This document shows positions 14,043 to 40,285 of a stretch of DNA of 48,223 nt, piece by piece. Below the pieces are notes generated by a model. It saw nothing but the letters and a program-made list of their open reading frames with translations. It made no database searches and was not told where the DNA came from. The stretch is from contig JAHFFY010000005.1 of the NCBI GenBank assembly GCA_023247705.1, forward strand, positions 1 through 48,223. The letters are read 5' to 3'. The translations under genes were made by a program, and so were the position numbers. How positions within the stretch are numbered: the stretch's first letter is position 1; the number at the start of each line of letters is the position of its first letter. The DNA comes from Candidatus Omnitrophota bacterium (GTDB lineage: Bacteria; Omnitrophota; Gorgyraeia; Zapsychrales; JAHFFX01).

Positions 14043-14441
14043 ATGATTGACAAAAGCGGTACAGATCGGCGTCATTTTTATCGGGCCAAGCGTATTTTAG
14101 ATATTCGTCATTCCTTATATAAAAGGGGAAAAAATGTTTATTCCAGCCCTCCATATATATCGGACACCCAAGACATGAGTGTAAACGGGATTCTGTTTTC
14201 TTCTTCAGCTCCATATCATGTCGATGATATTGTAGAATTGGAAGTGAATATGGCGGGGGCTTTGAATATCTTCCGGGGTTATGGTCGCGTGGTGCGCGTT
14301 GAGAAAAAATCTTCGACAAGACAATATTCCATAGCGGTCACACTGATCAATCTCAAGAAAAAATTGCCTACTCTTTCCAAGGTGTTATCCTCTCGGGTTA
14401 TCTCACGTAAAAAGACGGTTCAAACAACTGCGAAGAAATAG
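14043..14441 (+). CDS. PilZ domain protein (c-di-GMP receptor candidate)
   Basis: RRHFYR (RxxxR) followed ~35 aa later by DMSVNG (DxSxxG). 132 aa with a basic tail. Confidence 0.6.
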   Translation: MIDKSGTDRRHFYRAKRILDIRHSLYKRGKNVYSSPPYISDTQDMSVNGILFSSSAPYHVDDIVELEVNMAGALNIFRGYGRVVRVEKKSSTRQYSIAVTLINLKKKLPTLSKVLSSRVISRKKTVQTTAKK

Positions 14442-16042: not shown

Positions 16043-17359
16043 ATGACTACTGAAAAAGATATCCTGAATGCCTTAAGCCGGATCATTGATCCGGATTTCA
16101 ATAAAGACATCGTTTCGTTAGGGTTTGTTAAAAATATTCAAATCAAAGGAAAAGATGTGTCTTTTGATATTGAATTAACGACCCCGGCTTGCCCGATCAA
16201 AGCCGAATTTCAGGCCCAAGCGGAAAAATCCGTTAAATCATTAAAAGATGTCGAAGGGGTGAGCGTCCATATGACCTCTGCGCCGCGAGTCAAGAAACAA
16301 CCGGCGGTTGCGGAAAGCAGCCCGTTGACTCAGGTCAGATCTATTATCGCGGTTTCGTCGTGTAAAGGCGGCGTCGGGAAATCAACGGTCGCCGCTTGCT
16401 TGGCGTTGGAATTGGCGCAAAGGGGTTTCAAAGTCGGTTTGATGGACGCGGACATTTATGGCCCATCGGTTCCGACCTTGCTCAATCTGCAGGGGATTCC
16501 TGTTCAGGTGAATGTCAAACAACAACTCATTCCGCTTGAAAAAAATAATTTAAAGATCATGTCGTTCGGTTTCCTTCTGGGGGATGCCCCGGCTGTTTTG
16601 CGCGGGCCGATTGTGTCACGTTATATCCAGCAACTGCTGCATCAGACCGCCTGGGGGGAACTGGATTATCTTTTTATCGATATGCCACCGGGAACGGGAG
16701 ATATTCAACTGACGATCACGCAGTCTTTGAAGTTAAGCGGTGCGGTGATCGTAACCACCCGCCAAACGCTTTCGCTCGTTGATGTCGCGCGCGGGATCCT
16801 GATGTTTGAAAAGGTCGATGTCCCGATGCTGGGGATCATTGAGAACATGTCGTATTTCATCTGCGATCAATGCCAGAAGAAACATTATATTTTCGGGGAG
16901 AAACAGGGGAGCCGGCTGGAGGAACGTTTCGGTTTACCGGTCTTGGCGGAAATCCCGATCATCGGCGCGTTAACCGGTCAAATCGAGCAGGCCGTGGCCA
17001 ATGATTTTATCCGTAATGCCGTAGACGCGGTCATCCGGTCTTTGGGCAAAACGAGCCTGCTGACCAAACAAACGCCGTCGATTGAATTCAACGCCGAGGA
17101 AATTCATCTGCGCTGGTCCAACGGAGAAGACATCCGTGTTAAGAACCGCGACCTGCGCCTGAGCTGCGGGTGTGCTTTGTGTATCAATGAGATGACTGGT
17201 GAGAAAATTTTCAAGAAAGAAACCATCCGCCCCGACATCCAGCCCAAAGAAATCTTCACGCTGGGCAATTACGCGATCGGCATCAACTGGAACGACGGGC
17301 ATTCCTCCGGGATTTATCCGTATAAAAGTATTCGGGAAGTAGCAGGGAAGACAAAGTAA
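16043..17359 (+). CDS. apbC: Mrp/NBP35 Fe-S cluster carrier ATPase with DUF59 N-domain and DUF971 C-domain (HCF101-type architecture)
   Basis: N-terminal DUF59-like DPDFNKDIVSLGFV. Deviant Walker A CKGGVGKST, CDQC motif. C-terminal LSCGCALCINEMTG...GNYAIGINWNDGHSSGIY (DUF971-like). Confidence 0.85.
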   Translation: MTTEKDILNALSRIIDPDFNKDIVSLGFVKNIQIKGKDVSFDIELTTPACPIKAEFQAQAEKSVKSLKDVEGVSVHMTSAPRVKKQPAVAESSPLTQVRSIIAVSSCKGGVGKSTVAACLALELAQRGFKVGLMDADIYGPSVPTLLNLQGIPVQVNVKQQLIPLEKNNLKIMSFGFLLGDAPAVLRGPIVSRYIQQLLHQTAWGELDYLFIDMPPGTGDIQLTITQSLKLSGAVIVTTRQTLSLVDVARGILMFEKVDVPMLGIIENMSYFICDQCQKKHYIFGEKQGSRLEERFGLPVLAEIPIIGALTGQIEQAVANDFIRNAVDAVIRSLGKTSLLTKQTPSIEFNAEEIHLRWSNGEDIRVKNRDLRLSCGCALCINEMTGEKIFKKETIRPDIQPKEIFTLGNYAIGINWNDGHSSGIYPYKSIREVAGKTK

Positions 17360-17839: not shown

Positions 17840-18106
17840 TTATAAATTCAGATTATTTTCTTTTTTAAATACATCCCATTCTTCCGGGGTCAAGGTTTTG
17901 AGCTTCAAGGCGTGGACCGATTGGGCAAAGGCGTCTTTCAAAGGTTTCATGACCATTTGATGCTGTTTAACGAGAGGCAATCCCTTAAAAATAGAACTCA
18001 CGACCACCGCCTCGAGATGCTGGCCGTCCTGCATGGGATCCATAATATAAGCAGTCGAATCAGGGACCGCGACTTCAATTGTTTCTTTGATTTCGGATAA
18101 GGTCAT
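17840..18106 (-). CDS. BolA/IbaG family protein
   Basis: BolA-like fold pattern (DGQHLEAVVVSSIFKGL...HQMV...HALKLKT). The ATG at 18106 overlaps the gshB stop as ATGA. The track start at 18118 is a TTG. Confidence 0.75.
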   Translation of the reverse strand: MTLSEIKETIEVAVPDSTAYIMDPMQDGQHLEAVVVSSIFKGLPLVKQHQMVMKPLKDAFAQSVHALKLKTLTPEEWDVFKKENNLNL

Positions 18107-19419
18107 GATCTTTTCCAATTATCTCTGAACCACTGAATGATGTCGTCCGATTCGTACAGAGGCTTTCCATCAATGAGCAAACAAGGGACTTGGGGGCTGC
18201 CGCTAATTTTGATGAGTTCTTCGCGGTTATGCGGATTAGTACGGATGTCTTTGGTTTGAATGACGATTTTGTTTTGGGCCAGATAATCTCGGACGCGTGC
18301 GCAGAAAGGACAACCTAAGAAATGGTATAACGTAAGTTGGTGTTTCATTTGCGGTGCTTGTTTTTTTTCAGCATCCGGTTTTTTCTCGGATTCCTGTGTT
18401 CTCTCTAAGGATTTTTCAACCATGATATCAGCGCTTCTGTTTTGCTCTAGGAATTTTTCAAAGGGTATGTCCGGATTTTTATGCTGGTGCACTAATTTTT
18501 CAACAAAGGCGATCACGTCCATTTCCAGGGTTTTATTATAAAGCACGTTCATTTCCTGAAGACAGGTGGGGGAGGTGACATTGACTTCAATCAGACAGTG
18601 TCCGATAATATCGATCCCGACGAAATAAAGTCCGAGTCGTTGCAGATGGGGCCGAAGCACGCTGACGATTTCCAGATCACGCTTGGTGATTTCGGCGGAC
18701 ATGGGTGTCCCGCCCGCGAACAGGTTGTTGCGGTGATCGTCCTGCGAATGGAGTCGGATGATCGTGCCCAGGACATCGCCGTTTAGAAGTAAAATCCGTT
18801 TGTCGCCGTTTTGAGATTCCGGTAAATATTTCTGGAGGATGACGTCTTTGCGCCAGCGTTGGGTCAGCGTTTCAAGGATGACCTGCGCGTTTTTGTCCCG
18901 AAGGTTGATATGAAAAACCCCGACGCCTCCGAATCCGTCGGTTGGTTTGGCAACAATGTCTTTGTGCAAGGAAAGGAAATCCAGCAGCGCGGCAGATTTG
19001 CGTCCGATCAAAGTTGGCGGAACGAGTTGGGTGAATTGGGCCGCCCAGACTTTTTCGTTGACGGTGCGAAGCCCATGAGGGCTATTAATGACTGGAATAT
19101 TTTTCGGCAACCGGTCCAATAACCAGGTATTTAATAAGTATTGTGGATCGAATGGGGGATCATTGCGGACAAAGACCGCGTCGATTTTATTTTGATCAAG
19201 AACCACCGGGGTCCGTTGGGCAAAAGGGTTTTGGGCGTTCTTCTCCGGGATGACCGCGAGGGCGTGAAAGATCAATTCGCCGTCCTTTAAAAGGATATCA
19301 CCATCGGTTACAAAAAAGATTTTATGCCCGCGCTGGTGCGCGCCCCACATGAAGATAAAGGAAGTGTCTTTGTCCATGACGACCGTATCCAATGGATCCA
19401 TCAAAAACAAGAAATTCAT
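18103..19419 (-). CDS. gshB: glutathione synthetase (ATP-grasp GshB) fused to a C-terminal glutaredoxin-like domain
   Basis: The N-terminal ~315 aa are typical bacterial GshB (MNFLFLMDPLDTVVMDKDTSF...). After a charged linker comes LTLYHFLGCPFCARVRDYL...VPCLLIDGKPLYESDDI, a thioredoxin-fold CPFC glutaredoxin. Confidence 0.85.
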   Translation of the reverse strand: MNFLFLMDPLDTVVMDKDTSFIFMWGAHQRGHKIFFVTDGDILLKDGELIFHALAVIPEKNAQNPFAQRTPVVLDQNKIDAVFVRNDPPFDPQYLLNTWLLDRLPKNIPVINSPHGLRTVNEKVWAAQFTQLVPPTLIGRKSAALLDFLSLHKDIVAKPTDGFGGVGVFHINLRDKNAQVILETLTQRWRKDVILQKYLPESQNGDKRILLLNGDVLGTIIRLHSQDDHRNNLFAGGTPMSAEITKRDLEIVSVLRPHLQRLGLYFVGIDIIGHCLIEVNVTSPTCLQEMNVLYNKTLEMDVIAFVEKLVHQHKNPDIPFEKFLEQNRSADIMVEKSLERTQESEKKPDAEKKQAPQMKHQLTLYHFLGCPFCARVRDYLAQNKIVIQTKDIRTNPHNREELIKISGSPQVPCLLIDGKPLYESDDIIQWFRDNWKRS

Positions 19420-20702
19420 TTGTTTGCTCTTTCTAGTTGAACAATTTCCCGGTGCGCGGCGATCCCGGCGATACGCGCCAGCATGCGGTAGATATCAAAG
19501 ATATTCATATTATGATGAACGCCGCAATCTCCGTATTTTTTTAAGTGAGGACACATTTTTTTAAAATCCATTCCTTGGGAATTTAAATTTTCCCGGGAAC
19601 CCTTCTTGGCGTGCGAACGGTAAAAACCGCCGACCAGATCATTATCGATTTGATAAATACAGACCTCGCTGACTTCATGGTTGATCGTATGGATCGTGGG
19701 AACGCCTTCCTGCAGCAAAAACCGTTCGATGACCTGGGCCCCTTTGCCTTTATATAATTTATTTTTATCTTTGCGGTTCAATTGGATCAGTTCCGCCGGA
19801 TCTTCGATCGGCATCACACCCATCCCGTAGGTCCCGGCATCGGCTTTGATAAAAATGAACGGTTTTTCTTCGATGGCGTGTTCCGTATATTTTTTTTGAA
19901 CCCTTTTGAATAAATCCGACGCCAAGTCCATCAATTTGACGCGGTCCTGTTCTACATTGATATTCACTTGATCGCTCACCGCGTAAAGCGCGGAGAATAA
20001 CCAGGGGTCTACTGCGATCGTCTTGGCGAATTCCGCAATGAGTTCGGCCGTGAATTTGAAATGGCTGGATTTGAGACGAGAATGCCATCCGGCCTGGATC
20101 GACGGATAAATCGGGATATTGGTTTCCTTAAGCACGTCCGGAATACCGGCGATCAAATCGTTGTTCATGATGATCAGATCGTAATGGGCGGTTTTTTCCT
20201 GAATGGATTTAAGGATCCGTTTAAAGCAATGAATCTGCACCGGTTGACCGGTCGCTGTTTCCAGTTGAACGAAACTGGCGTCTTCGCAAAAAGAGGGCTG
20301 GGCGTCCAAAAACGTCGCAATCTTCACATTGAAACCGGCTTGCGCGATGATCTGTTGCAGGATGCGGATGTTTTCCAGGTACCAGGTGTTTCGGGTATGT
20401 TCTTCGGGGACGATGAGGATGTCTTTACAGTTGGGAACGCGTTTTAAGATGGCCGGTTTGATAAATTTGACGGAGTCGGCCAATCCGTGTTCGCATAAAT
20501 TGTTGAATCCCGCCGGAAAAAGGTTGGTATCAACGACCGCGATTTTAAAACCCGCGTCGCGGATGTCCACGGAGGAATAAAGCGGCAATTCATTGCAGCA
20601 TTCTTTGCTGATCAGCCAGCGGTGGATTTCATCCTGACGGGATTTGATCCGTTCGATAAAGACGGGAGTGGAAAGACCTTTATGGAGATATCCGATACTC
20701 AT
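19416..20702 (-). CDS. gshA: probable glutamate--cysteine ligase (non-canonical small GshA family)
   Basis: ATGA overlap with gshB. ~428 aa from MSIGYLHKG. Resembles, from memory only, the Acidithiobacillus-type GshA family. The track ORF extension to 20849 overlaps the upstream gene and is rejected. Confidence 0.5.
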   Translation of the reverse strand: MSIGYLHKGLSTPVFIERIKSRQDEIHRWLISKECCNELPLYSSVDIRDAGFKIAVVDTNLFPAGFNNLCEHGLADSVKFIKPAILKRVPNCKDILIVPEEHTRNTWYLENIRILQQIIAQAGFNVKIATFLDAQPSFCEDASFVQLETATGQPVQIHCFKRILKSIQEKTAHYDLIIMNNDLIAGIPDVLKETNIPIYPSIQAGWHSRLKSSHFKFTAELIAEFAKTIAVDPWLFSALYAVSDQVNINVEQDRVKLMDLASDLFKRVQKKYTEHAIEEKPFIFIKADAGTYGMGVMPIEDPAELIQLNRKDKNKLYKGKGAQVIERFLLQEGVPTIHTINHEVSEVCIYQIDNDLVGGFYRSHAKKGSRENLNSQGMDFKKMCPHLKKYGDCGVHHNMNIFDIYRMLARIAGIAAHREIVQLERANK

Positions 20703-20712
20703 ACGGCCTCGA

Positions 20713-21468
20713 CTATTGTTTTTTGATATTGGCTTCCTTGGCCATCCCCACCATAGCCTGACGGACAGCCTCCAGCGTAAAACAGGGAGACGGAAAATGG
20801 AAATAGAGATCTTCGATTTCGGTGCGGACCTGAAATCCGTCCGGATCAACAGAGATTAACTGAGCGTGTTCGCGCGTTAATCGAACGTAATACCGGCAAT
20901 AATTTAACAAAGCGTCCTGGTGGTCTTGGTTCATGTGCTCAATGATGGCGTGTTCCACCTGGGGCAAGCTGGACTTTGGTAAAAGGAATTCCTCTTTTTC
21001 GATCCAGAAAATTTTGGCAAACCCTTCAATGTATCGGATGCGAACCGGTTCAATCTGAAAATAAACGAAGTCATGGGCTTGAAAATAAGACCGGGCTTCG
21101 GGAAAGATCCTCAGAAAACGGTCTTGGGTATATGGTAATTCAGTTTTCGTGACTTTAACTGCCTGACCGATCAAAGAAACCCTGGCGCCGTTCAGACGAT
21201 GGCGTTTGGATTCTTCCATGACGGTTAAACAAACACGATTATTGCGCAGGATATTTTTTGTGTGCTGGGCGATTAGGCTGATCAGAATAACAGGAACACC
21301 TTCAGGATTCAGCATGTAAGGACAGACCGATCCAAACGGATAATCCGGACAATCGACGGAGAGCGTGGAGAGGATTCCGTTCTGGTTTTGTCTTAAGAAA
21401 AGCCGCGCTGCTTTGGCTGTTTCGGTCGGGTTGGTCATTTTTAAATCATTTCCAATGTGCATGTACAA
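20713..21468 (-). CDS. pyridoxamine 5'-phosphate oxidase-fold protein, HugZ/DUF2470-like
   Basis: N-terminal split-barrel pattern (ILSTLS...PFGSVCPYMLN...VILISLIAQHTKNI) plus a C-terminal domain with HMNQDHQDAL. An alternative start is at 21438. Confidence 0.55.
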   Translation of the reverse strand: MYMHIGNDLKMTNPTETAKAARLFLRQNQNGILSTLSVDCPDYPFGSVCPYMLNPEGVPVILISLIAQHTKNILRNNRVCLTVMEESKRHRLNGARVSLIGQAVKVTKTELPYTQDRFLRIFPEARSYFQAHDFVYFQIEPVRIRYIEGFAKIFWIEKEEFLLPKSSLPQVEHAIIEHMNQDHQDALLNYCRYYVRLTREHAQLISVDPDGFQVRTEIEDLYFHFPSPCFTLEAVRQAMVGMAKEANIKKQ

Positions 21469-30886: not shown

Positions 30887-32197
30887 ATGTCCCATCTCAA
30901 TGATCCAAGAACAACCGTTTCTTTTTATACGCTCGGTTGCCGTTTGAACCAAAGTGAATCGGCGGTCATTCGGAATACCTTTGAAGCGCAAGGGTATCGG
31001 GTTGTTGATTTCCTTCAACCGGCGGACATTTCAATTATCAATACGTGCACGGTGACCGAACATGGAGACGCGGACACCCGTCACTTGATCAACAAAGTGA
31101 CTCGGATCAATCCGAATGTCCGGATTGCTTTAGTCGGCTGTCAGGCCCAGATCCAAAAAGAAAAATTATCAGAACTTCCCAATGTCACCTGGATTGTCGG
31201 TAATGCCCGCAAGATGGAAATGGTTTTTATTATCAATGACCATCCGGAAAATGAAACGAAAGTCCAGGTCATTACTCCGGCGATACCGCGCGATCATTTT
31301 ACCATCCCTATCACCGGGTTTGACCGTGAGCATACGCGGGGTAATCTTAAAATTCAGGACGGATGCGATTTTTTCTGTTCGTTTTGTGAAATTCCTTATG
31401 CGCGCGGACGGGCGAGAAGCCGTGAATTTGAAGACATCCTCATGGAGGCGAGGGCTTTGGCCGCGGCGGGACACAAAGAACTGGTCTTGACCGGAATCAA
31501 TATTGGGACTTATCAACATGAAGGGAAAAAATTACTGCAGGTCATCGAGGCATTGGAATCCATTCCAGAACTGGAACGCATCCGGATCTCATCGATCGAA
31601 CCAACGACGATTCCCGAGGAGATTTTCCAAAGAATGGGCCACGATTCGAAATTATGCCGCTATCTGCATATCCCGATTCAAAGCGGGCATGATAAGATCC
31701 TAGAGCAGATGCGACGAAAGTACACGGTTGGAGAATTCAGTCAGTTTATCGATCGTGTTTACCAAAACGTCCGGGGGATTTGTTTGGGAACGGATGTGAT
31801 CGTCGGTTTTCCAGGAGAGACTGAACATCATTTTGAACAAACTTACACGCTGTTGCGGGATTTGCCGTTTGCCTATTTTCACGTCTTTAGTTATTCCCAG
31901 CGTCATGTGGCGCAAAGCCGGAAGCTGACCAATCCCGTTGATCGGGCTGTCATTCAGAAACGCAGTCGAATTTTACGTGATTTGAGTGTGCGCAAAAGAC
32001 AGGTTTTTCTCAAAAATTTAATCGGGTCAGCCCAGAACGTTTTGTTTGAACAAAAAAAGGATGGGTTCTGGAATGGCTTGACGGATAATTATGCGCGGGT
32101 AAAGGTAAAAACGGAACATGATTTGCAGAATCAAATGAGGTTGATGCGGATGCAAGGCTTGGATGGACCGATGTTAGTAGGCGAGATGATAAGTTAA
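30887..32197 (+). CDS. mtaB: tRNA t6A37 methylthiotransferase MtaB (radical SAM)
   Basis: MTTase N-domain (SFYTLGCRLNQSES), radical SAM GCDFFCSFCEIPYARG, C-terminal TRAM-like region. 436 aa. Confidence 0.85.
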   Translation: MSHLNDPRTTVSFYTLGCRLNQSESAVIRNTFEAQGYRVVDFLQPADISIINTCTVTEHGDADTRHLINKVTRINPNVRIALVGCQAQIQKEKLSELPNVTWIVGNARKMEMVFIINDHPENETKVQVITPAIPRDHFTIPITGFDREHTRGNLKIQDGCDFFCSFCEIPYARGRARSREFEDILMEARALAAAGHKELVLTGINIGTYQHEGKKLLQVIEALESIPELERIRISSIEPTTIPEEIFQRMGHDSKLCRYLHIPIQSGHDKILEQMRRKYTVGEFSQFIDRVYQNVRGICLGTDVIVGFPGETEHHFEQTYTLLRDLPFAYFHVFSYSQRHVAQSRKLTNPVDRAVIQKRSRILRDLSVRKRQVFLKNLIGSAQNVLFEQKKDGFWNGLTDNYARVKVKTEHDLQNQMRLMRMQGLDGPMLVGEMIS

Positions 32198-33642
32198 TGG
32201 ATGATTCCAGAATCAACAAGCAGACATTGATTGATAATCTGATGGACGCTCTGCAGCAGATTGGGTATCGGGATACGGAGAGATTGGAAAAATTCAAGGA
32301 GCATGCGGACGCGATCATCAAGAATTTTAACGGCGACACCAGCAATTATCGTTTTAGTTTGAAAATGACCAGGTTCGCCCCTTGGTCCGCGCATGTCGAT
32401 GAAGATGAATATATAAAGAGCTGGAACACCGGAAAAGTCATTACATTTAATATCCTCAAGGCCATTAATGAGGATGAGAAGATCACATACAAGGGCAATC
32501 ATCCCGATGTGATTGAAGAAGAGAATCCCGAACCAACGCCAGTCCCTTCATCTGAACCGTTACCGCAAACGCCTGTCCCGTTATCCTCTGAATCCGTGAT
32601 GCAAACGTCTGATGTTTCTCTTCCTTTGCCACCGGAGGAGATGGTTGAATCCAATGCAAGTGATTTCAAACAAACGGAAGGTCCACTGGAGGATGCTCAT
32701 TTCATGAGCGAAGATATCAGGGAGGAAGAAAAAATGACATCGGCCCCTTCCCTGATCGACGTGAAAAAAACGATCCCAACGGGAATCCGTGTATTTATCA
32801 ATTCATTAGTGAACAAATTAAAATCTATTTTGACTAAAAAGTTGTGGAAATCCGAAGCAATCTTACCCGTATCGAATGATGTGGACCAAATTCAATGTCC
32901 ATCAACTCTTGAGGAAAAATTTCTTCAAACAGAGGCCCAGATTCCGGCGTTAAGCGAGTCGCTTCAAGTGGAAGCCCGACTGCCACCGCAGGAAACACAT
33001 CCACCGGAGACACCCAATGCCGATGTGCCTGCGCTGGAATCATCCGCCAATCCGGCTCCGATGGAAGTTTCAGCGGAAACGAAACCAAAAGAACCCGAAC
33101 AAACCTTGCCGCAAGATCAATCGAACCAAGTTCCCGCCGCAGCCAGCCCTGAACCGAATTGTTCGCCACCGGCAAAACAGTCCAATCGTATTTTAATTGT
33201 CAATGGGAGTGATATGTCGATGAATGAAAAGGTTTTGGTTCTTTTAAGGAAATTAGGCTTTGAAGGGATTCTCTCCTACAGCGAAGAAAATTATTCCAAG
33301 ACCGTGGCCACCAAAATGCTCGAGTTCAAGGACATTGCCTTTGTCGTGGTTTTGCTTACTTATGATGGATATTTTTACCTGAAAGAACAGAAAGTCAGTC
33401 AGGCGAAATTGATTTCGAATTATAAAGTAATTTTCGAGATGGGGTATTTGATTGGTAAAATAGGACGTAATAAAGTTTTTGTGCTTTATCCGGAAAAAAA
33501 GAATTTTGAATTGCCATCACTCTTCTTTGATGCTTATTATATTCCGTACGATAAAAGCCGGGCTTGGGAGAAAGAATTGATTAAGGCTTTTACGGATCAA
33601 GGTTTTCCGACGAATGACATCAACACATTTCAAAAGAAATAA
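32197..33642 (+). CDS. protein with helical N-domain, long P/E/S-rich linker and C-terminal CAP12/Pycsar-type TIR-like domain
   Basis: C-terminal 152 aa (33184-33639) carry FVVVLLTYDG, VIFEMGYLIGKIGRNKVFVLY and ELPS..FDAYYIPYD blocks of the bacterial TIR-like (COG4271-type) family, recalled from memory. TAATG overlap with mtaB. Confidence 0.6.
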   Translation: MDDSRINKQTLIDNLMDALQQIGYRDTERLEKFKEHADAIIKNFNGDTSNYRFSLKMTRFAPWSAHVDEDEYIKSWNTGKVITFNILKAINEDEKITYKGNHPDVIEEENPEPTPVPSSEPLPQTPVPLSSESVMQTSDVSLPLPPEEMVESNASDFKQTEGPLEDAHFMSEDIREEEKMTSAPSLIDVKKTIPTGIRVFINSLVNKLKSILTKKLWKSEAILPVSNDVDQIQCPSTLEEKFLQTEAQIPALSESLQVEARLPPQETHPPETPNADVPALESSANPAPMEVSAETKPKEPEQTLPQDQSNQVPAAASPEPNCSPPAKQSNRILIVNGSDMSMNEKVLVLLRKLGFEGILSYSEENYSKTVATKMLEFKDIAFVVVLLTYDGYFYLKEQKVSQAKLISNYKVIFEMGYLIGKIGRNKVFVLYPEKKNFELPSLFFDAYYIPYDKSRAWEKELIKAFTDQGFPTNDINTFQKK

Positions 33643-33668
33643 TCGAGAGGATTTTTAAAGGAGGGATT

Positions 33669-34196
33669 ATGGAAGAACTCGTTTCGGAATCGTCCGTCCC
33701 ATCGGATGTTAAGGCTTATTTCGAATATAATTTTGACGAGTATATCGATGCGTATCATTTGCATTATTCCCAACTGAAACGGTTGAAAATCAATATTCTC
33801 ATCGCCGTCATCCTGCTTTTTTTAGGTTTGGCTTTATGCGTTTTTCTCGGCTATTCGTTTCTTAAGTCCATTCCGATCTACGCGTCGGTCATTTTGGTCG
33901 CGGTTCTCTTGAGCGAATATTTCTTTGCCCCGACGAAAAATTTTAACCACGACCCGCGTTTAAAGAAAGAGCATACGTTAGTTTTTAGTGATGAGAAAAT
34001 TTTATTTACGGTTAATAACATGACGGTTGCGATCAAGTGGAAACAGTATCAGAAATATATTGAGAATCAAGATTTTTATCTGTTATATTATGCTCCGGAA
34101 ACATTTTTGATTATTCCTAAGCGGGCTTTGACTCCGGAGGGGAGTGAACAGCTGAGGGCGATATTAATCTCCAAATTTGGTGCTCAGAGGTGCTGA
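33669..34196 (+). CDS. YcxB-like two-TM membrane protein
   Basis: Two adjacent TM helices (INILIAVILLFLGLALCVFLG, IPIYASVILVAVLLSEYFF). Then a C-terminal domain with IKWKQYQKYIENQDFYLLYY....LIIPKRAL typical of YcxB-like domains. Confidence 0.5.
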   Translation: MEELVSESSVPSDVKAYFEYNFDEYIDAYHLHYSQLKRLKINILIAVILLFLGLALCVFLGYSFLKSIPIYASVILVAVLLSEYFFAPTKNFNHDPRLKKEHTLVFSDEKILFTVNNMTVAIKWKQYQKYIENQDFYLLYYAPETFLIIPKRALTPEGSEQLRAILISKFGAQRC

Positions 34197-34281
34197 AGAT
34201 GATTGGGCGGATTTTTCCATTTCAGGATTCCGTGGACGAATTCAGGGGCGATTGAATCACTTTTGAAATTTAAACAACAAA

Positions 34282-35154
34282 ATGGAAGAACATTTACCTC
34301 CCAAACCATTGAACCCAAAACGCAAGGATCCGTTGGATAATTTTTTTTTGGAGTTAGAATTATCTCCCGAGGCCGATACGATCCATATGGCCGAGCATGA
34401 GATCCCGGATTGGCCACCCCAAAAGTTTATTGATCCCCAGGAGGATCCTGCACATCTTCACGGTCAGTTGCCGCCAGCCAGAAATCAAGATTTGGTCAAG
34501 TCTCTGGAAGAAAAAGAAGAGCAACAAACCACGATCGATCAGTTGGCTGTCATTATTGAAGGAATCAAGAAGAAACGCATTTCGGCCACGAATGCTTCCG
34601 AGATTTCTCATTTGCCCGGGAGGGAAGACTTACCGGACCAGAAAGTGACAGAATCCGCTTTTTCCTCCGATATTCCTCAAGACCTCAAAGATGACCGGGA
34701 GCTTATTAAATTAGCGCAATCGATTTATCTTTCTTGTGGCCAGAATCAATCGATCAAAGCGGACGTTGTTTCTCTGATCAAGAAATTAGGTCTGACCATG
34801 ATCCCGAAACAAGAAGGGGTGTCCATCATGAAACAGTTTGAAGAAGTTCCTGATCTGCGTTTTGCCGTGGTGGTCCTTTCAGGGGATGATTTTGTTTATT
34901 CCAAAGATCAAATGGTGCCGGAAATAAAATTGCGTCCGGCGCAGCATGTTGTTTTGGAGCTGGGCTTTTTATTAGGTAAATTAGGGCGACAGGGTGTATT
35001 TGTTTTATATCAAGAATTAAAAAATTTTGAATTTCCGACAAATTTTTTTGATATCCTGTATACGCCTTATACAAAAATGGGTTCATGGCAGTTTGAATTG
35101 CTCCGTCAGATGAAAAGCGTCGGGTTTGATTTTGACGCGAATAAGCTTCTTTGA
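34282..35154 (+). CDS. second CAP12/Pycsar-type TIR-like domain protein (paralog of 32197-33642)
   Basis: C-terminal 144 aa (34720-35151): FAVVVLSGDD, VVLELGFLLGKLGRQGVFVLY, EFPTNFFDILYTPY. The N-terminal half is acidic and low complexity. Confidence 0.6.
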   Translation: MEEHLPPKPLNPKRKDPLDNFFLELELSPEADTIHMAEHEIPDWPPQKFIDPQEDPAHLHGQLPPARNQDLVKSLEEKEEQQTTIDQLAVIIEGIKKKRISATNASEISHLPGREDLPDQKVTESAFSSDIPQDLKDDRELIKLAQSIYLSCGQNQSIKADVVSLIKKLGLTMIPKQEGVSIMKQFEEVPDLRFAVVVLSGDDFVYSKDQMVPEIKLRPAQHVVLELGFLLGKLGRQGVFVLYQELKNFEFPTNFFDILYTPYTKMGSWQFELLRQMKSVGFDFDANKLL

Positions 35155-35223
35155 TCGGGACAGCGCAGGATGCGTTGAAAGTTTGGCTAAATCCGTCCTT
35201 CAGAAAAATCGAGTTGGTCATTG

Positions 35224-35748
35224 ATGAGAATGATTTCTTTGCTATGGGTTTGTGTGTTGACGTTCGGGTTCAGTTTTTCGATGCCCGGGGATGGAACTGT
35301 TTTTGCAGCGGACAAAATGTCTTTGAATCTTTGTTCTGACCAGAAACTGGGGATCAAGATCCTTTGCAATCCTGATTGGCAGCTGGTGACGAAGCAACAT
35401 AATTTTACGATGATCATCGAAGAAGATGCCCAGGAAAGTGTGTCCGTAACGATCGCGAAATCAGATCAAAAGGCGGGACGTCTCTCCGAGCTTAACCGCT
35501 CGGTATTGCAATTTTTAGGAGGATATGAAGATTTCTTTAAAGTTGAATCTTTTAAATTTGGTTCCAGGGATGCCTTGAAAGTCGAGGGAGGGCTTAAGGA
35601 ATCCCCCGACACTCAATCACTTGATTATTATCTTATTCATGATGGATATCTTTACATGGTTCTTTTTTCCTGTCATCCCAAAAAGCATTTTGTAAATTAT
35701 AAAAAAATGTTTGAGGAAATGATTGCCAGCTTTGAATTTATTGAATGA
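35224..35748 (+). CDS. hypothetical secreted protein
   Basis: Signal-peptide-like MRMISLLWVCVLTFGFSFS...FAA. No family recognised. ATG at 35224 preferred over TTG at 35221. Confidence 0.4.
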   Translation: MRMISLLWVCVLTFGFSFSMPGDGTVFAADKMSLNLCSDQKLGIKILCNPDWQLVTKQHNFTMIIEEDAQESVSVTIAKSDQKAGRLSELNRSVLQFLGGYEDFFKVESFKFGSRDALKVEGGLKESPDTQSLDYYLIHDGYLYMVLFSCHPKKHFVNYKKMFEEMIASFEFIE

Positions 35749-35792
35749 TATTTCATCATAGAAATTTTTTTGAGTGGTTAAAGGTAACATCA

Positions 35793-36581
35793 ATGAAAAA
35801 AAATCTATTGTACGGTAAAATCCGTTTGTTGCTTTTCAGCCTGTTTGTGATGAGCGGAATGATCGTTCTGGGAGGTGGATTATCTTCCACGTTTGCCGAT
35901 GGAGAACGCCCTGCCCCGTTTGCCCTGGTTGAACTTTTTACCTCGGAAGGTTGCTCAAGTTGTCCATCGGCCGATCTTTTTTTTTCCAATCTAACCACCG
36001 AGGTCCGCCAGAAGAATATTCCGATTTACACGTTATCGTTTCATGTGGATTACTGGAATCATTTAGGATGGAAGGACCCTTTCAGCCAAGAAGTTTTTTC
36101 CGACCGGCAACGGCAATACGCCAGGATTCAAAATACGGATAGCATTTACACACCGCAAATGATTGTAAACGGGACGTATGCCTTTTCCGGACAGCGCGGA
36201 GATTTGGCCAAACAGGCGATTGATAAAGTGATGTCTAAGCCGCCGAAAGCGACAATCAATTTTGAAATCTTGGATCAGAGCGATCAAAACGCAATCAAGC
36301 TGTCCTATTCGATCAAAGGCGTTCCCAAAGAGACGCTCTTGCATATCGCGATCGTGGAAAGAGGATTGGATACACATATCACCGCTGGAGAAAATGCGGG
36401 CCAGACACTTTCTCAGGATAATGTGGTGAGAAATTTTCGAACTTTCCGGATCAATAAATTGCAAGGGAAGGTAAATCTGGAAATCCCTAAATTAATCGTT
36501 AGGAAAAATGCTTCTGTGATCGGCTATTTACAGGATCCGTATTCGATGGGGGTTTTGGGCGCGGCTCAGTTCGACCTGTGA
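35793..36581 (+). CDS. DUF1223 domain secreted thioredoxin-fold protein
   Basis: ELFTSEGCSSCPSAD and HVDYWNHLGWKDPF motifs characteristic of DUF1223. A signal peptide starts at MKKNLLYG. An alternative ATGA-coupled start is at 35745. Confidence 0.7.
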   Translation: MKKNLLYGKIRLLLFSLFVMSGMIVLGGGLSSTFADGERPAPFALVELFTSEGCSSCPSADLFFSNLTTEVRQKNIPIYTLSFHVDYWNHLGWKDPFSQEVFSDRQRQYARIQNTDSIYTPQMIVNGTYAFSGQRGDLAKQAIDKVMSKPPKATINFEILDQSDQNAIKLSYSIKGVPKETLLHIAIVERGLDTHITAGENAGQTLSQDNVVRNFRTFRINKLQGKVNLEIPKLIVRKNASVIGYLQDPYSMGVLGAAQFDL

Positions 36582-36638: not shown

Positions 36639-37052
36639 ATGTTCAAACTAAAAAAAACATTTGGAAATAGTAATAAGGCTTTTACTTTGGCGGAGGTTTT
36701 AGTGGTCATCGGGATTATTGCCCTTCTGGCCGCCATCTCGATTCCTTATCTTTTAAGCGCCAGGATTAGTTCTAATAATGCGGCCGCCCAGGCCACATTA
36801 AAAAGTATTTCCAATGCCATGGAAAATTACATGGCCATTAACAGCGTTTATCCAAGCGCAACCAGCGAATTATTGGGCGTCAACCCGCCGTATCTGTCGG
36901 TTGATTATTTTACCGGCTCCCACAATGGTTTTAACTTTACCCCCACGATCAGCAGTTTTGCTTATTCGATCTTAGCGACACCGGTTTTGATGGGGAAAAC
37001 TGGGTCAGCCAGTTACACCATCTCTACGGGTGCCGTTTTAACAACGAATTAG
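36639..37052 (+). CDS. prepilin-type N-terminal cleavage/methylation domain protein (type IV pilin/pseudopilin-like)
   Basis: KAFTLAEVLVVIGIIALLAAISIPYLL: class III signal with Glu at +5 after the putative cleavage site. 137 aa. Confidence 0.7.
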   Translation: MFKLKKTFGNSNKAFTLAEVLVVIGIIALLAAISIPYLLSARISSNNAAAQATLKSISNAMENYMAINSVYPSATSELLGVNPPYLSVDYFTGSHNGFNFTPTISSFAYSILATPVLMGKTGSASYTISTGAVLTTN

Positions 37053-37209: not shown

Positions 37210-38652
37210 ATGAACCGACATTTTTTTGCTCAAAGACTTTTTCTTGCATTGGCATTCATCATGGCCAGCTATCCTGGAGATCCCATTTGGGCAGCGGAAT
37301 CTTCTTCAGAAAAAATCGCGAAGGAAGACCAAGCAGTTGTTAAGATTATTGAACAAAACAACTGCAACGCTTTTCGTTTTGATGCCAGTGCTTTATTGAA
37401 CACGATTACCCCCGAGATGAAGTTGGTCTGGAACTTGGGGGACGGCATGGTCGCCAACCAGGCGGTTGTCGACCATACTTATCAAAAAGCCGGCGAATAT
37501 AAAGTCCAATTGACCGTGAACGATGGTGCTGATCTTCAGAAAAAACCCATTTCAAGTTTTCAGAATATTCACGTATCTGTTCCTCCTGCCGTTATTTTAA
37601 AAGCGCCGGATAAAGTTTGTGTTCATGAGAAAATCCGTTTGGATGTCCAGGGTAAAGACGCGCTTGAGCCTTCTTTGAAATATATCTGGGATCTGGGGGA
37701 TGGAACACAGGGAACGGGCCGATTTTTACAGAAAAAATATGATCAGCCCGGACACTATACGATTCGGTTAACGACGTTGGATCGTTCAAGAAATTTTTGT
37801 GCACAGTCAATCATTGAAAAAGATATTTATGTCAACAGACCGCCTCAGGCGAACGCGGGGGAAGATGTTAATTTGCAATGCTTGGCCCGGCCGATCGATT
37901 TTAATCTGACCTTCGACGCCTCGGCCTCAATGGATCGTGAGGATGATTCCTTAGAATATTTTTGGGATTTCGGTGATGGAACCGGCGGCCAAGGTCAAAT
38001 CGTTGATCATCGATACAAAAAAGACGGCCGGTATCAGGTGCGATTGACTGTTCGCGATCAATCCGGATTAAGTTGTAATTCCAGTACCGACACCTTGGAG
38101 GTCAATCTTGCCAGAGGCGTTGAAGCCAAAGGGGGTGGGGATGTTTATGCCTGTGTGGGCGAAAACATTTCCTTTGATGGAAGCGCTTCGTATGGGCCGC
38201 AGGGGGCGTTGTTCGTGCAATGGGATTTTGGAGATGGGTCTCATGAACCGGGGTTGCAGCTGACGCATCGGTATAACCAAGAAGGCATTTATCAGGCAAC
38301 CTTAACCGTTGAGGATCCTTTTCAATCCCGATGCGCGGAAGTTTCCGACAGCCGTCTGGTCGTAGTGAAACAGTCTCCTAGGGTGACCATCGAGTCTGTC
38401 GGGGATGGTTATTCCGGGGAAGAGATTTTTTTTCAGGCGCTGGTTTCTTATCCGGCTTTGGATGAATTGGAATATTTCTGGAGTTTTGGGGATGGGACTG
38501 TGATCCGAGGGGGCCCGATTACTTCACATCGATTTTATCAGGCAGGGACTTATCAGGTTTCAATGATTGTTGATCAAAACGAACAGTCACAATGCTCCAG
38601 CAGTTCCGATCGTATGACGATCCATGTTCGGCCGGCAAGGGAAGTGGAATAA
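37210..38652 (+). CDS. secreted protein with five PKD-like repeats
   Basis: Signal peptide, then five units each with W.[LF]GDG...H.Y...G.Y.V.LTV.D (for example FWDFGDGTGGQGQIVDHRYKKDGRYQVRLTVRD) and paired Cys. Confidence 0.8.
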   Translation: MNRHFFAQRLFLALAFIMASYPGDPIWAAESSSEKIAKEDQAVVKIIEQNNCNAFRFDASALLNTITPEMKLVWNLGDGMVANQAVVDHTYQKAGEYKVQLTVNDGADLQKKPISSFQNIHVSVPPAVILKAPDKVCVHEKIRLDVQGKDALEPSLKYIWDLGDGTQGTGRFLQKKYDQPGHYTIRLTTLDRSRNFCAQSIIEKDIYVNRPPQANAGEDVNLQCLARPIDFNLTFDASASMDREDDSLEYFWDFGDGTGGQGQIVDHRYKKDGRYQVRLTVRDQSGLSCNSSTDTLEVNLARGVEAKGGGDVYACVGENISFDGSASYGPQGALFVQWDFGDGSHEPGLQLTHRYNQEGIYQATLTVEDPFQSRCAEVSDSRLVVVKQSPRVTIESVGDGYSGEEIFFQALVSYPALDELEYFWSFGDGTVIRGGPITSHRFYQAGTYQVSMIVDQNEQSQCSSSSDRMTIHVRPAREVE

Positions 38653-39994: not shown

Positions 39995-40285
39995 ATGCAA
40001 CGACATTCGACCTATTATGTTTATATTGTCCAATGCGTCAACGGGACCTATTATACGGGATACACCAGTGATATTGCCAAGAGGATCGAAGCGCACAATA
40101 AAGGTTCCGGCGCAAAATATCTGAAAGGTAAAACACCTGTTCAGCTGGTTTACCTTAAGGAATATGGTTATTACAAAAATGCCCTGAAAGAAGAACGAAG
40201 GATCAAAACGTTCGGGAGAAAAAAGAAAGAAAAGTTAATTGCAGGTTACACGAAAAATTCCGGGTTTTTAATCCATAAAAACTAA
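39995..40285 (+). CDS. GIY-YIG nuclease family protein (UPF0213-like)
   Basis: YYVYIVQCVNGTYYTGYTSDIAKRIEAHN...YKNALKEERRIK. ATG at 39995 preceded by GGAGGGG. Confidence 0.8.
   Translation: MQRHSTYYVYIVQCVNGTYYTGYTSDIAKRIEAHNKGSGAKYLKGKTPVQLVYLKEYGYYKNALKEERRIKTFGRKKKEKLIAGYTKNSGFLIHKN

What the first reader, a model, noticed from the sequence alone, without database searches (positions are those of the whole stretch)
32197..35154. Two paralogous CAP12/Pycsar-type TIR-like proteins bracketing a YcxB-like membrane protein, with no cyclase or known sensor
The ORFs at 32197-33642 (481 aa) and 34282-35154 (290 aa) end in ~145-150-aa domains that are clearly paralogous. Compare DIAFVVVLLTYDGYFY...KVIFEMGYLIGKIGRNKVFVLYPEKKNFELPSLFFDAYYIPY with DLRFAVVVLSGDDFVY...HVVLELGFLLGKLGRQGVFVLYQELKNFEFPTNFFDILYTPY. 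From memory, these reproduce the hallmark blocks of the bacterial TIR-like family used as NADase effectors in CBASS (Cap12) and Pycsar (PycTIR): FAVVLLTPDD, NVIFELGYFIGKLGR, IPSD..G..Y. The Glu of the FELGY block is kept in both (codons 33436-33438 and 34957-34959). The usual N-terminal HGHD strand is changed to NGSD and SCGQN. Between the two genes sits a 175-aa protein with two TM helices and a YcxB-like C-terminal domain. No CD-NTase, pyrimidine cyclase, SAVED/CARF domain or other signal generator is present anywhere in the window. If this is an NAD-depleting abortive-infection module, its trigger is unknown. I cannot match the duplicated-effector plus membrane-partner layout to any named system.
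Basis: partly seen in the sequence, partly recalled or inferred. Interest (0 to 1): 0.8.

Follow-up and report, generated by a model that had tools for sequence, protein, structure and literature searches.

The report
Paired TIR-like genes with membrane partner
Two diverged copies of a TIR-like (NAD-cleaving type) protein flank a small membrane protein in the core chromosome of an uncultured bacterium; the locus is a lineage-specific, duplicated variant of an untested single-gene "candidate phage-defence" family, and its function has not been tested.

Summary
ORFs A (32197-33642, 481 aa) and C (34282-35154, 290 aa) end in paralogous PF10137 TIR-like domains (38% identity, E=1e-29). They flank a two-helix YcxB membrane protein, and the window has no cyclase, CD-NTase, SAVED or CARF.

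PDC-S35 proteins carry their own N-terminal helical domain, so no cyclase is expected.

All 80 metagenomic relatives sampled are single genes without YcxB. A and C arose by duplication within one uncultured clade (NJ bootstrap 286/300).

The copies have diverged asymmetrically. A keeps the N-domain but has lost pocket residues near-invariant in 78 solo relatives (Arg, Gln, β1 Phe). C keeps those and the Glu, but in this window lacks the N-domain.

The locus lies among housekeeping genes, with A's start overlapping MtaB's stop. A genome whose flanking genes are 58-81% identical has the same layout.

Best reading: an A-C hetero-assembling NAD-cleaving switch, with YcxB as an optional membrane dock. 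Defence or domesticated physiology is undecided.

New variant of a known kind; moderate interest.

The parts
30887..32197 (+). Upstream context gene: MtaB/MiaB-like radical-SAM methylthiotransferase. Its TAA stop overlaps the ATG of A (TAATG).
   Evidence: Pfam UPF0004 plus Radical_SAM. The overlap is read directly from the sequence. MtaB is followed by A in the window, L006, L013 and L016.
32197..33642 (+). Gene A, 481 aa: PDC-S35-type N-terminal four-helix domain, a 225-aa disordered acidic Pro-rich linker, and a TIR-like (PF10137) domain.
32212..32490 (+). N-terminal helical domain of A (about residues 6-98).
   Evidence: AF2 pLDDT is about 90, with helices 8-21, 27-42, 49-57 and 69-92. It matches positions 7-96 of PADLOC model PDLC05005 (E=7e-4; the L006 C-type N-domain gives 1.5e-6). 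The local HMM gives E=7e-42. It has no Pfam family.
32779..32850 (+). Lone basic helix (residues about 195-218, TGIRVFINSLVNKLKSILTKKLWK) inside the otherwise disordered linker of A. It has a counterpart in L006 A (GLFSKLKSIFQKK) but none in the short-linker A proteins of the loci that lack YcxB.
   Evidence: AF2 helix 195-218, pLDDT 66-80. Alignment. The highest hydrophobic-moment 18-residue windows of the linker (0.5) start at residues 185-188 and overlap the start of this helix.
33175..33615 (+). TIR-like domain of A. Glu414 (33436-33438) is kept, but the Arg at -8 is Ile406 (33412-33414), the beta1 aromatic is Leu, and the Gln at -5 is Tyr.
33669..34196 (+). Gene B, 175 aa: YcxB-family protein with an N-terminal strand and helix, two transmembrane helices (about residues 41-62 and 64-88), and a PH/PTB-like C-terminal domain (about 100-170). 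The cytoplasmic orientation is inferred from the flanking basic residues.
   Evidence: Pfam PF14317 E=3e-16. AF2 pLDDT 80. Foldseek gives PTB, FERM-F3 and PH domains at probability 0.97-1.0. Hydropathy.
34282..35154 (+). Gene C, 290 aa: acidic disordered N-terminal region (no N-domain) plus a TIR-like domain (34708-35142) with Tyr150, Arg218 (34933-34935), Gln221 and Glu226 (34957-34959).

Best explanation
The locus encodes a two-subunit derivative of the self-contained PDC-S35 type of TIR-like protein.

Origin. An ancestral single gene (N-terminal helical domain, short linker, PF10137 TIR-like domain) duplicated within one uncultured clade. The MAG that carries the syntenic locus is labelled 'Planctomycetales'. 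The two copies then diverged asymmetrically.
- C keeps the beta1 aromatic, the Arg at -8, the Gln at -5 and the catalytic Glu. In this window C has lost the N-domain.
- A keeps the N-domain but has replaced Arg, Gln and the aromatic with Ile/Val, Pro/Tyr and Leu.

Proposed mechanism. TIR NADases become active only when their TIR domains pack head to tail and complete each other's active sites, as shown for SfSTING, ElSTING and SARM1. The most economical model is that A and C co-assemble. A supplies the sensing or nucleating N-domain and a structural TIR surface. C supplies the NAD+ (or related nucleotide) N-glycosidase activity. Activation would cause metabolic arrest.

Role of YcxB. It is a two-helix membrane protein with a predicted cytoplasmic PH/PTB-like domain. 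It probably docks one of the conserved motifs in the long disordered linkers and so holds or releases the pair at the inner membrane. It is an accessory, because some lineages lack it.

Shown: homology, fold, residue patterns, duplication history, gene order and genomic context.
Inferred: NAD+ cleavage, heteromer formation, membrane docking, the trigger, and whether the biological role is phage defence or another stress response.
For: - Family and fold: PF10137 hits lie above the curated cut-off. PDC-S35 models match at E=8e-32 (A) and 2e-30 (C), against about 1e-8 for PycTIR and CBASS TIR effectors. Foldseek's best matches are TIR-STING 9lmq, 9lmr and 7un8, then MyD88 and SARM1. The family profile against Cap12 gives E=3.9e-9.
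- N-domain: it matches the N-terminal part of the PDC-S35 model, and in about 20 of 80 metagenomic relatives it is joined to the TIR domain by a short linker.
- Duplication within the clade: A is monophyletic in 300 of 300 NJ bootstraps, C plus L019 in 269 of 300, and A+C in 286 of 300, nested among 78 solo relatives. Orthology runs A to A and C to C between the window and L006.
- Asymmetric divergence against the 78 solo proteins: the solo proteins have beta1 Phe 75/78, Arg(-8) 77/78, Gln(-5) 77/78 and Glu 78/78. C types have F/Y 5/5, Arg 5/5, Gln 5/5 and Glu 5/5. A types have Leu 5/5, Val/Ile 5/5, Gln 1/5 and Glu 4/5 (Asp in L006).
- N-domain on C: absent in the window, L012 and L016, present in L006, L009 and L010.
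- Both copies are maintained: TIR-domain identity across lineages is 48-57% for A and 48-54% for C.
- Need for TIR-TIR assembly and the pocket residues: PMC9402430 and PMC12421889.
- Linkage: the A-C pair occurs in at least four lineages where both genes are on the contig (window, L006, L012, L016). L009, L010 and L019 carry parts of the module at contig ends.
- YcxB: its PH/PTB-like domain and both termini are predicted to lie on the same side of the membrane.
- The wider family looks like a mobile conflict gene: 960 plasmid records and some phages, including a copy beside pifC and a KAP NTPase on an IncF plasmid.
Against: - No biochemical or genetic data exist for PDC-S35 or for this clade. 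Literature searches for 'PDC-S35' found nothing, and YcxB has no functional literature.
- C is not fully canonical either. It lacks the beta1 His (0/5 against 76/78) and the Asn at -4 (Gln or His instead; this position is N80 of SfSTING), so C's activity or substrate may also be altered.
- No heteromer prediction could be run.
- The locus lies in a housekeeping block with long-range collinearity between genomes whose flanking genes are 58-81% identical. PADLOC finds no defence genes among the neighbours tested. This is atypical for abortive-infection modules.
- YcxB is missing in L012 and L016, and L017 has YcxB without A upstream, so the three-gene unit is not fixed.
- Sampling is thin: only two long contigs, and the rest are 1-3 kb fragments.
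Confidence: 0.45

Rival explanations
1. Domesticated, non-defence function. The pair, with or without YcxB, has become a vertically inherited housekeeping or stress regulator in this clade. Examples would be a membrane-linked NAD+/nucleotide-sensing or dormancy switch, with one or both TIR-like domains acting as binding modules rather than suicide NADases.
For: - Gene order around the trio is the same in two genomes whose flanking genes are only 58-81% identical: Dus, GT3N-like, DUF423, TM protein, MtaB, A, YcxB, C, hyp175, DUF1223, pilin, PKD. Collinearity extends more than 10 kb on both sides.
- A's start overlaps MtaB's stop.
- The promoter and terminator scans do not exceed shuffled controls.
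- There are no mobile-element or defence genes in 48 kb or among the neighbours of related loci.
- Both paralogues depart from pocket residues that are near-invariant in 78 solo relatives.
- Long lineage-specific disordered linkers carry conserved short motifs.
Against: - The catalytic Glu is retained in 9 of the 10 clade sequences, and C keeps Arg, Gln and the aromatic.
- Every characterised PF10137 protein I found is an immune effector, and close family members sit on plasmids and phages.
- Among close relatives (80-88% nucleotide identity), module content and flanks vary in L010, L012, L019 and L017. That looks like accessory-gene behaviour.
Confidence: 0.25
2. Thoeris-like signalling system. 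One or both TIR-like proteins sense infection and convert NAD+ into a small signal. That signal binds the PH-like domain of the two-helix YcxB protein, which then damages the membrane. This would parallel Thoeris types II, V and VII, where TIR genes pair with small transmembrane effectors.
For: - The layout of one or more TIR genes plus a small transmembrane protein with a soluble domain mirrors validated Thoeris configurations. Multiple TIR genes per system are known (type III) (preprint 10.64898/2025.12.03.692087).
- YcxB lies between the two TIR-like genes in the window, L006 and L009, and directly upstream of C in L010.
- The YcxB family has invariant W-x-Q-Y and P-K motifs in the soluble domain.
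Against: - YcxB/PF14317 does not appear in the text or the held supplements of that survey.
- PADLOC gives no Thoeris or other hit for B.
- In the papers read here, PF10137 TIRs appear only as NAD-depleting effectors (CBASS, Pycsar), not as signal producers.
- L012 and L016 keep A and C with no YcxB between them.
- None of the 80 solo relatives has a YcxB neighbour.
- The PH/PTB fold points more towards peptide or lipid binding than nucleotide binding.
Confidence: 0.15
3. Two independent single-gene PDC-S35 systems that happen to lie next to each other, with an unrelated YcxB gene between them.
For: PDC-S35 is defined as a single-gene candidate, and all 80 sampled relatives are solitary. YcxB proteins are a large family of mostly stand-alone small proteins: 3101 cluster representatives at E<=1e-3.
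Against: - The pair is retained with A-to-A and C-to-C orthology across lineages whose flanking genes are about 60% identical.
- The losses are asymmetric: the pocket in A, the N-domain in C.
- The trio's YcxB proteins form a small distinct subgroup: only 4 representatives at E<=1e-30.
Confidence: 0.1

Closest known systems
PADLOC candidate system PDC-S35 (single-gene 'phage defence candidate'; N-terminal helical domain plus PF10137 TIR-like domain)
   Same: Both A and C match all five PDC-S35 models (best E=8e-32 and 2e-30). A also matches the N-terminal part of the model. The motif skeleton is shared: F-E-L-G-x-x-x-G-K-x-G-R, E-x-P, and W.
   Different: - The window has a duplicated, diverged pair instead of a solitary gene.
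- A has a 225-aa disordered insert, against the short linker of roughly 20 residues seen in the solo relatives that show the N-domain.
- A lacks the near-invariant Arg, Gln and Phe. C lacks the N-domain, the beta1 His and the Asn at -4.
- A YcxB gene is inserted between the two.
- The context is a chromosomal housekeeping block rather than plasmid, phage or IS contexts.
PDC-S35 itself has no validation in the literature I could search.
CBASS Cap12 (TIR-STING; SfSTING 7UN8, ElSTING 9LMQ)
   Same: Same Pfam TIR-like family and the best structural match. The catalytic Glu aligns (E84 and E86). These proteins require head-to-tail TIR assembly for activity.
   Different: There is no STING or SAVED domain and no CD-NTase. 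NCBIfam Cap12 equivalog scores are 17-22 bits against a cut-off of 450. The N-terminal module is different, and the TIR domain is C-terminal here.
Pycsar PycTIR (8JSJ)
   Same: Same PF10137 domain. The PADLOC PycTIR model matches the TIR region at about 1e-8, and the family profile against 8jsj gives E=0.06.
   Different: There is no pyrimidine cyclase in the window, and PycTIR matches only over the TIR region, far more weakly than PDC-S35.
Thoeris systems with small transmembrane effectors (types II, V, VII) and with multiple TIR genes (type III)
   Same: The gene-level layout is similar: one or more TIR-domain genes next to a small membrane protein with a soluble domain.
   Different: The TIR subtype differs, because PF10137 is known as an effector type. 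YcxB is not a described Thoeris effector. YcxB is dispensable in some lineages, and the context is not a defence island.

Membership tests
Pfam PF10137 CAP12-PCTIR_TIR (TIR-like domain) | Profile match above the curated gathering score | tested here: met
   A scores 55 bits and C scores 49 bits against a cut-off of 24.7.
Pfam PF10137 CAP12-PCTIR_TIR (TIR-like domain) | TIR/flavodoxin-like fold closest to the Cap12 TIR | tested here: met
   For the A model (TIR region pLDDT 85-90), the top Foldseek hits are 9lmq, 9lmr and 7un8 at E=2.6e-5 to 8e-4. C was not modelled, but it is 38% identical to A over the domain.
Pfam PF10137 CAP12-PCTIR_TIR (TIR-like domain) | Catalytic Glu in the alphaC helix (SfSTING E84, ElSTING E86) | tested here: met
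   E414 (A) and E226 (C) align with the Cap12 Glu. The L006 orthologue of A has Asp.
Pfam PF10137 CAP12-PCTIR_TIR (TIR-like domain) | NAD+ glycohydrolase activity | not testable with these tools
   This needs an enzyme assay. The pocket residues are only partly conserved, badly so in A and mostly in C.
CBASS Cap12 (TIR-STING or TIR-SAVED effector) | Fused cyclic-oligonucleotide sensor domain (STING or SAVED) and full-length equivalog score | tested here: not met
   NCBIfam NF050172 scores 16.9 and 22.5 bits against a cut-off of 450, and only the TIR segment matches. Pfam finds no STING or SAVED domain.
CBASS Cap12 (TIR-STING or TIR-SAVED effector) | Adjacent CD-NTase | tested here: not met
   None was found among the window's annotated ORFs or in the syntenic locus L006.
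Pycsar PycTIR | Adjacent pyrimidine cyclase | tested here: not met
   There is no cyclase in the window. The PADLOC PycTIR model matches only the TIR segment, at 5e-8 and 6e-9.
PADLOC PDC-S35 candidate | Match to the PDC-S35 protein models | tested here: met
   A: E=8e-32 down to 1e-18. C: E=2e-30 down to 1e-17. All five models match.
PADLOC PDC-S35 candidate | Architecture of N-terminal helical domain plus C-terminal TIR-like domain | tested here: inconclusive
   A has both domains, separated by a 225-aa insert. C lacks the N-domain in the window, although its orthologues in L006, L009 and L010 have it.
PADLOC PDC-S35 candidate | Solitary single-gene system | tested here: not met
   The genes are paired paralogues here, whereas all 80 sampled relatives are single copy.
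PADLOC PDC-S35 candidate | Anti-phage activity | not testable with these tools
   I found no experimental report for PDC-S35.
Thoeris | Signal-producing TIR plus an effector with a recognised signal-binding domain | tested here: not met
   PADLOC gives no Thoeris hits. YcxB/PF14317 is absent from the 29 effector types surveyed. Signal production itself cannot be tested here.
Pfam PF14317 YcxB | Profile match above the cut-off, and two transmembrane helices plus a C-terminal domain | tested here: met
   59.2 bits against a cut-off of 23.3. AF2 model and hydropathy. The C-terminal domain is PH/PTB-like.

The most novel reading that the evidence does not exclude
The A-C pair, with YcxB where it is present, is a previously undescribed, vertically inherited heteromeric TIR-like system. 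A sensor-bearing pseudo-enzyme (A) licenses a sensor-less catalytic partner (C) at the membrane through a PH-like receptor (YcxB). This would be either a new type of TIR immune system built from PF10137 TIRs, or the first case of such a module domesticated into the core physiology of a bacterial lineage.
Probability: 0.2. Interest if true: 0.7.

Novelty: new variant of a known kind. Interest (0 to 1): 0.45.

Why it matters
Bacterial TIR-like NADases are usually studied as mobile effectors: either triggered by a partner cyclase, or single-gene proteins of unknown trigger.

This locus shows such a gene being duplicated and split into a sensor-type and a catalytic-type subunit. It has gained long disordered linkers and a membrane partner, and it sits stably in a housekeeping operon.

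If the heteromer model holds, it would be a bacterial parallel to sensor/helper pairs in eukaryotic TIR immunity. It would also provide a tractable entry point into the untested PDC-S35 family and the large, function-less YcxB family. If it is domesticated, it would show an immune TIR module recruited to ordinary cell physiology within bacteria.

Tried and rejected
- CBASS or Pycsar effector membership was rejected. There is no sensor domain and no cyclase, and the NCBIfam scores are far below the cut-off.
- 'Loss of HGHD means inactivation' was rejected. Active Cap12 TIRs have GSS at that position.
- The YcxB-alignment scan of reference genomes returned only the L006 contig. The same scan of metagenomes returned nothing.
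- Contexts for the next-nearest YcxB relatives (P0021, P0022) were contigs of 630-774 bp and gave no information.
- Searches for 'PDC-S35' and for 'YcxB' plus 'defense' found nothing useful.
- The N-domain has no Pfam family and does not appear among the listed Foldseek hits, which are dominated by the TIR-like domain.
- The promoter and terminator scans did not differ from shuffled controls.
- No tandem repeats underlie the Pro-rich linker.
- There are no Rfam families or tRNAs in the window.
- dN/dS was not attempted, because the orthologues are only 34-57% identical and synonymous sites would be saturated.

Full report
**1. Observation**

The three ORFs are present as described:
- A: 32197-33642, 481 aa.
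- B: 33669-34196, 175 aa.
- C: 34282-35154, 290 aa.

Pfam places a CAP12-PCTIR_TIR domain (PF10137) at A 331-452 (E=1e-14) and at C 148-264 (E=7e-13). It places a YcxB domain (PF14317) at B 106-166 (E=3e-16). All three score well above the curated cut-offs.

The two C-terminal domains are 38% identical over 144 residues, E=1e-29.

Pfam annotation of the window's other main ORFs shows only housekeeping functions. These include sulfate assimilation, citrate synthase, fumarase, glutathione synthesis, MutY, SurE, Fur and Dus. There is no cyclase, CD-NTase, SAVED or CARF domain, and no integrase or transposase. There are no tRNAs and no Rfam families.

**2. What the proteins are**

PADLOC models of the candidate single-gene system PDC-S35 match A and C at E=8e-32 and 2e-30. 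The PycTIR and CBASS TIR-effector models match only the core of the TIR domain, at about 1e-8. NCBIfam Cap12 equivalogs score 17-22 bits against a cut-off of 450.

AlphaFold2 on A gives four features:
- A confident four-helix N-terminal domain (residues 8-92, pLDDT about 90).
- A disordered linker of about 225 residues.
- One isolated helix within that linker (195-218).
- A confident TIR-like domain (331-467).

The linker is 15% Pro and 13% Glu, with net charge -24.

Foldseek's best PDB matches are the TIR domains of TIR-STING (9lmq, 9lmr, 7un8), followed by MyD88 and SARM1. A family profile matches the Cap12 sequence at E=3.9e-9 over the whole TIR domain.

The N-domain of A matches the N-terminal part of PDC-S35 model PDLC05005 (E=7e-4). 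The equivalent domain of the L006 C orthologue matches at 1.5e-6. A is therefore a complete PDC-S35-type protein with a long insert. This family carries its own N-terminal module, which explains why no cyclase is present.

B is predicted (pLDDT 80) as a short strand and helix, two transmembrane helices, and a beta-sandwich with a C-terminal helix. The best structural matches of that last domain are PTB, FERM-F3 and PH domains, with probability 0.97-1.0 but modest E-values of about 1e-2. A and C have no hydrophobic segments.

**3. Relatives and history**

The trio recurs. Contig L006 comes from MAG GCA_964612665.1, labelled 'uncultured Planctomycetales bacterium'. It has this gene order: Dus / GT3N-like / DUF423 / TM protein / MtaB / A (426 aa) / YcxB / C (399 aa) / hyp176 / DUF1223 / pilin / PKD. 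This is the same order as in the window.

Identities between the two genomes are as follows:

| Gene | Identity |
|---|---|
| Dus | 81% |
| MtaB | 64% |
| GT3N-like | 58% |
| A | 34% |
| YcxB | 42% |
| C | 35% |

A pairs with A and C pairs with C. Collinearity extends further on both sides: SDF, Mo-oxidoreductase, ABC and Lpd-like genes upstream, and a methyltransferase downstream.

Shorter contigs add further lineages:
- L009: A-YcxB-C.
- L010: YcxB-C-DUF1223.
- L012 and L013: GT3N-MtaB-A-C, with no YcxB.
- L016: MtaB-A-C, with no YcxB.

In the window, the MtaB stop and the A start overlap (TAATG).

In contrast, I scanned metagenomes with the family alignment and then surveyed the hits with local HMMs. 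All 80 of the closest relatives are single copy with no adjacent YcxB. About 20 of them show the N-domain joined to the TIR domain by a short linker.

In an NJ tree of 88 TIR domains, bootstrap support is as follows:
- A types are monophyletic: 300 of 300.
- C types plus L019 form a clade: 269 of 300.
- A+C together form a clade: 286 of 300.

This points to a duplication within the clade.

The trio-type YcxB proteins are a tiny subgroup of a very large family. Of 3101 representatives at E<=1e-3, only 4 reach E<=1e-30.

**4. Asymmetric divergence of the two copies**

The table below gives residue counts. Positions are numbered relative to the catalytic Glu.

| Position | 78 solo relatives | C types (5) | A types (5) |
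|---|---|---|---|
| beta1 aromatic | Phe 75 | F/Y 5 | Leu 5 |
| beta1 His (of HG) | His 76 | 0 (Tyr, Cys, Ser) | His 3 |
| Arg at -8 | Arg 77 | Arg 5 | 0 (Val or Ile) |
| Arg at -6 | Arg 72 | Arg 3 | 0 |
| Gln at -5 | Gln 77 | Gln 5 | Gln 1 |
| Asn at -4 | Asn 75 | 0 (Gln or His) | Asn 2 |
| Glu | Glu 78 | Glu 5 | Glu 4, Asp 1 |

In SfSTING, the equivalents of the beta1 Phe (F6), the Arg at -6 (R78), the Asn at -4 (N80) and the Glu (E84) line the NAD+ pocket. Activity also needs a loop contributed by a neighbouring TIR domain (PMC9402430; ElSTING in PMC12421889). Active Cap12 has Ser where the solo proteins have His.

C's deviations are therefore mild, and A's are radical. Yet both TIR domains are equally conserved across lineages: 48-57% identity for A and 48-54% for C.

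C has no N-domain in the window, L012 and L016, although it has one in L006, L009 and L010.

The linkers also hold conserved short elements:
- A basic helix in A, present in the window and L006 but absent from the short-linker A proteins of the loci that lack YcxB.
- An acidic motif in C (D-Y-x-L-E-L-E-F-x-P-E-A-E-x-I) followed by a short helix.

**5. Most likely mechanism**

I infer an obligate or preferential A-C assembly. A provides the N-domain (sensing or nucleation) and a non-catalytic TIR surface. C provides the catalytic pocket. Trigger-induced TIR stacking switches on NAD+ or nucleotide N-glycosidase activity.

YcxB, whose PH/PTB-like domain is predicted to face the cytoplasm, plausibly docks a linker motif and localises or restrains the pair at the membrane.

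Everything beyond homology, fold, residue patterns, phylogeny and gene order is inference. Confidence is 0.45.

**6. Rival explanations**

(a) Domesticated, non-defence role (0.25). This is favoured by the housekeeping context, the long-range synteny, the overlap with MtaB and the altered pockets. It is disfavoured by the retained Glu and by the variation among close relatives. The C genes of L010, L012 and L019 are about 88% identical in DNA but differ in flanks and module content. L017's YcxB is 80% identical in DNA to the window's, but a release-factor gene lies upstream instead of A.

(b) Thoeris-like signalling with YcxB as the effector (0.15). The layout fits, but YcxB is not among the described effectors, it is dispensable in two lineages, and in the papers read here PF10137 TIRs appear only as effectors.

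(c) Two independent single-gene systems (0.10). This is contradicted by the conserved pairing and the asymmetric losses.

**7. Context of the wider family**

Relatives of the C domain occur in 960 plasmid records, mostly Klebsiella and Escherichia, and in a few phages. Examples include:
- A copy next to pifC and a KAP NTPase on an IncF plasmid.
- A copy among IS elements and a reverse transcriptase on a Spirosoma plasmid.
- A copy between replication genes in an E. coli phage.

This fits a conflict-system origin and contrasts with the window's stable chromosomal setting.

PDC-S35 has no validation in the literature I could search.

**8. Verdict**

The locus is a new variant of a known kind: a PDC-S35 / PF10137 TIR-like protein that has been duplicated, has diverged into two unequal copies, is partnered with a YcxB membrane protein, and is embedded in the core genome.

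Interest is 0.45. The asymmetric-divergence pattern and the core-genome setting are unusual. However, the family assignment is ordinary, sampling is thin (two long contigs), and no function has been demonstrated.

Noticed in passing
window 7778-8842 and 14043-14441: A response regulator fused to an HD-GYP-type HD domain (HD_5), and a separate small PilZ protein. These are c-di-GMP signalling components unrelated to CBASS.
   Followed up: no
window 18103-19419 (- strand): Glutathione synthetase (GSH-S_N plus GSH-S_ATP) with a C-terminal glutaredoxin/GST_N-like domain, next to a GshA gene at 19416-20849.
   Followed up: no
window 14689-15720: A PP-loop ATPase (ThiI / tRNA_Me_trans-like) fused to an NFACT-R_2 RNA-binding domain. 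This is an unusual tRNA-thiolation-type architecture.
   Followed up: no
window 16043-17359: An Mrp/ApbC-type Fe-S carrier ATPase with an extra C-terminal GBBH-like_N (DUF971-type) domain.
   Followed up: no
window 3768-5624: A CysN-like GTPase whose C-terminal APS-kinase match covers only the first half or so of the kinase profile (positions 2-81 of 152). The CysC domain may be truncated or degenerate.
   Followed up: no
window 19416-20849 and 20713-21468 (- strand): These two mechanical ORFs overlap by about 136 nt, so the TTG start of the GshA ORF is probably called too far upstream.
   Followed up: no
window 35221-35748, 35745-36581, 36639-37052, 37210-38652: Downstream of the trio lie a small protein with a hydrophobic N-terminus and a sub-threshold PsbP-like match, a DUF1223 protein, a prepilin-type protein and a multi-PKD protein. 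All are conserved in the same order in L006.
   Followed up: partly
window about 39995-40285 (from L001 14203-14493): A small stand-alone GIY-YIG domain protein (96 aa) between an unannotated 378-aa gene and a Na+/H+ exchanger.
   Followed up: no
JGI contig carrying P0004 (no DNA fetched): A solo PDC-S35-like gene lies about 1 kb from a Terminase_6N gene, and a metallo-beta-lactamase-fold gene with a faint anti-Pycsar Apyc1 hit lies about 2.8 kb from it. The contig may be phage or prophage.
   Followed up: no
P0006 (Logan contig, 2577 bp): A PF10137 TIR-like protein whose N-terminal part is a biotin/lipoyl-attachment domain (PF00364) instead of the helical N-domain.
   Followed up: no
L100 (E. 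coli IncF plasmid CP099057.1) 4515-8818: A TIR-like 'nucleotide-binding protein' lies immediately next to a KAP-family NTPase and pifC, flanked by an IS21 element and vapBC. I recall pif as the F-plasmid T7-exclusion locus, but I did not check this here.
   Followed up: partly
L012 2536-3021: The gene downstream of the A-C pair in this lineage has no Pfam or PADLOC match and no counterpart in the window, L006, L010 or L019.
   Followed up: partly
L017 914-1191: A 279-bp AT-rich spacer separates a release-factor-like gene (PCRF plus RF-1) on the minus strand from a YcxB gene. Similarity to the window starts only inside that gene (80% nucleotide identity from window 33714 onward), so this close relative has no A gene upstream.
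   Followed up: partly
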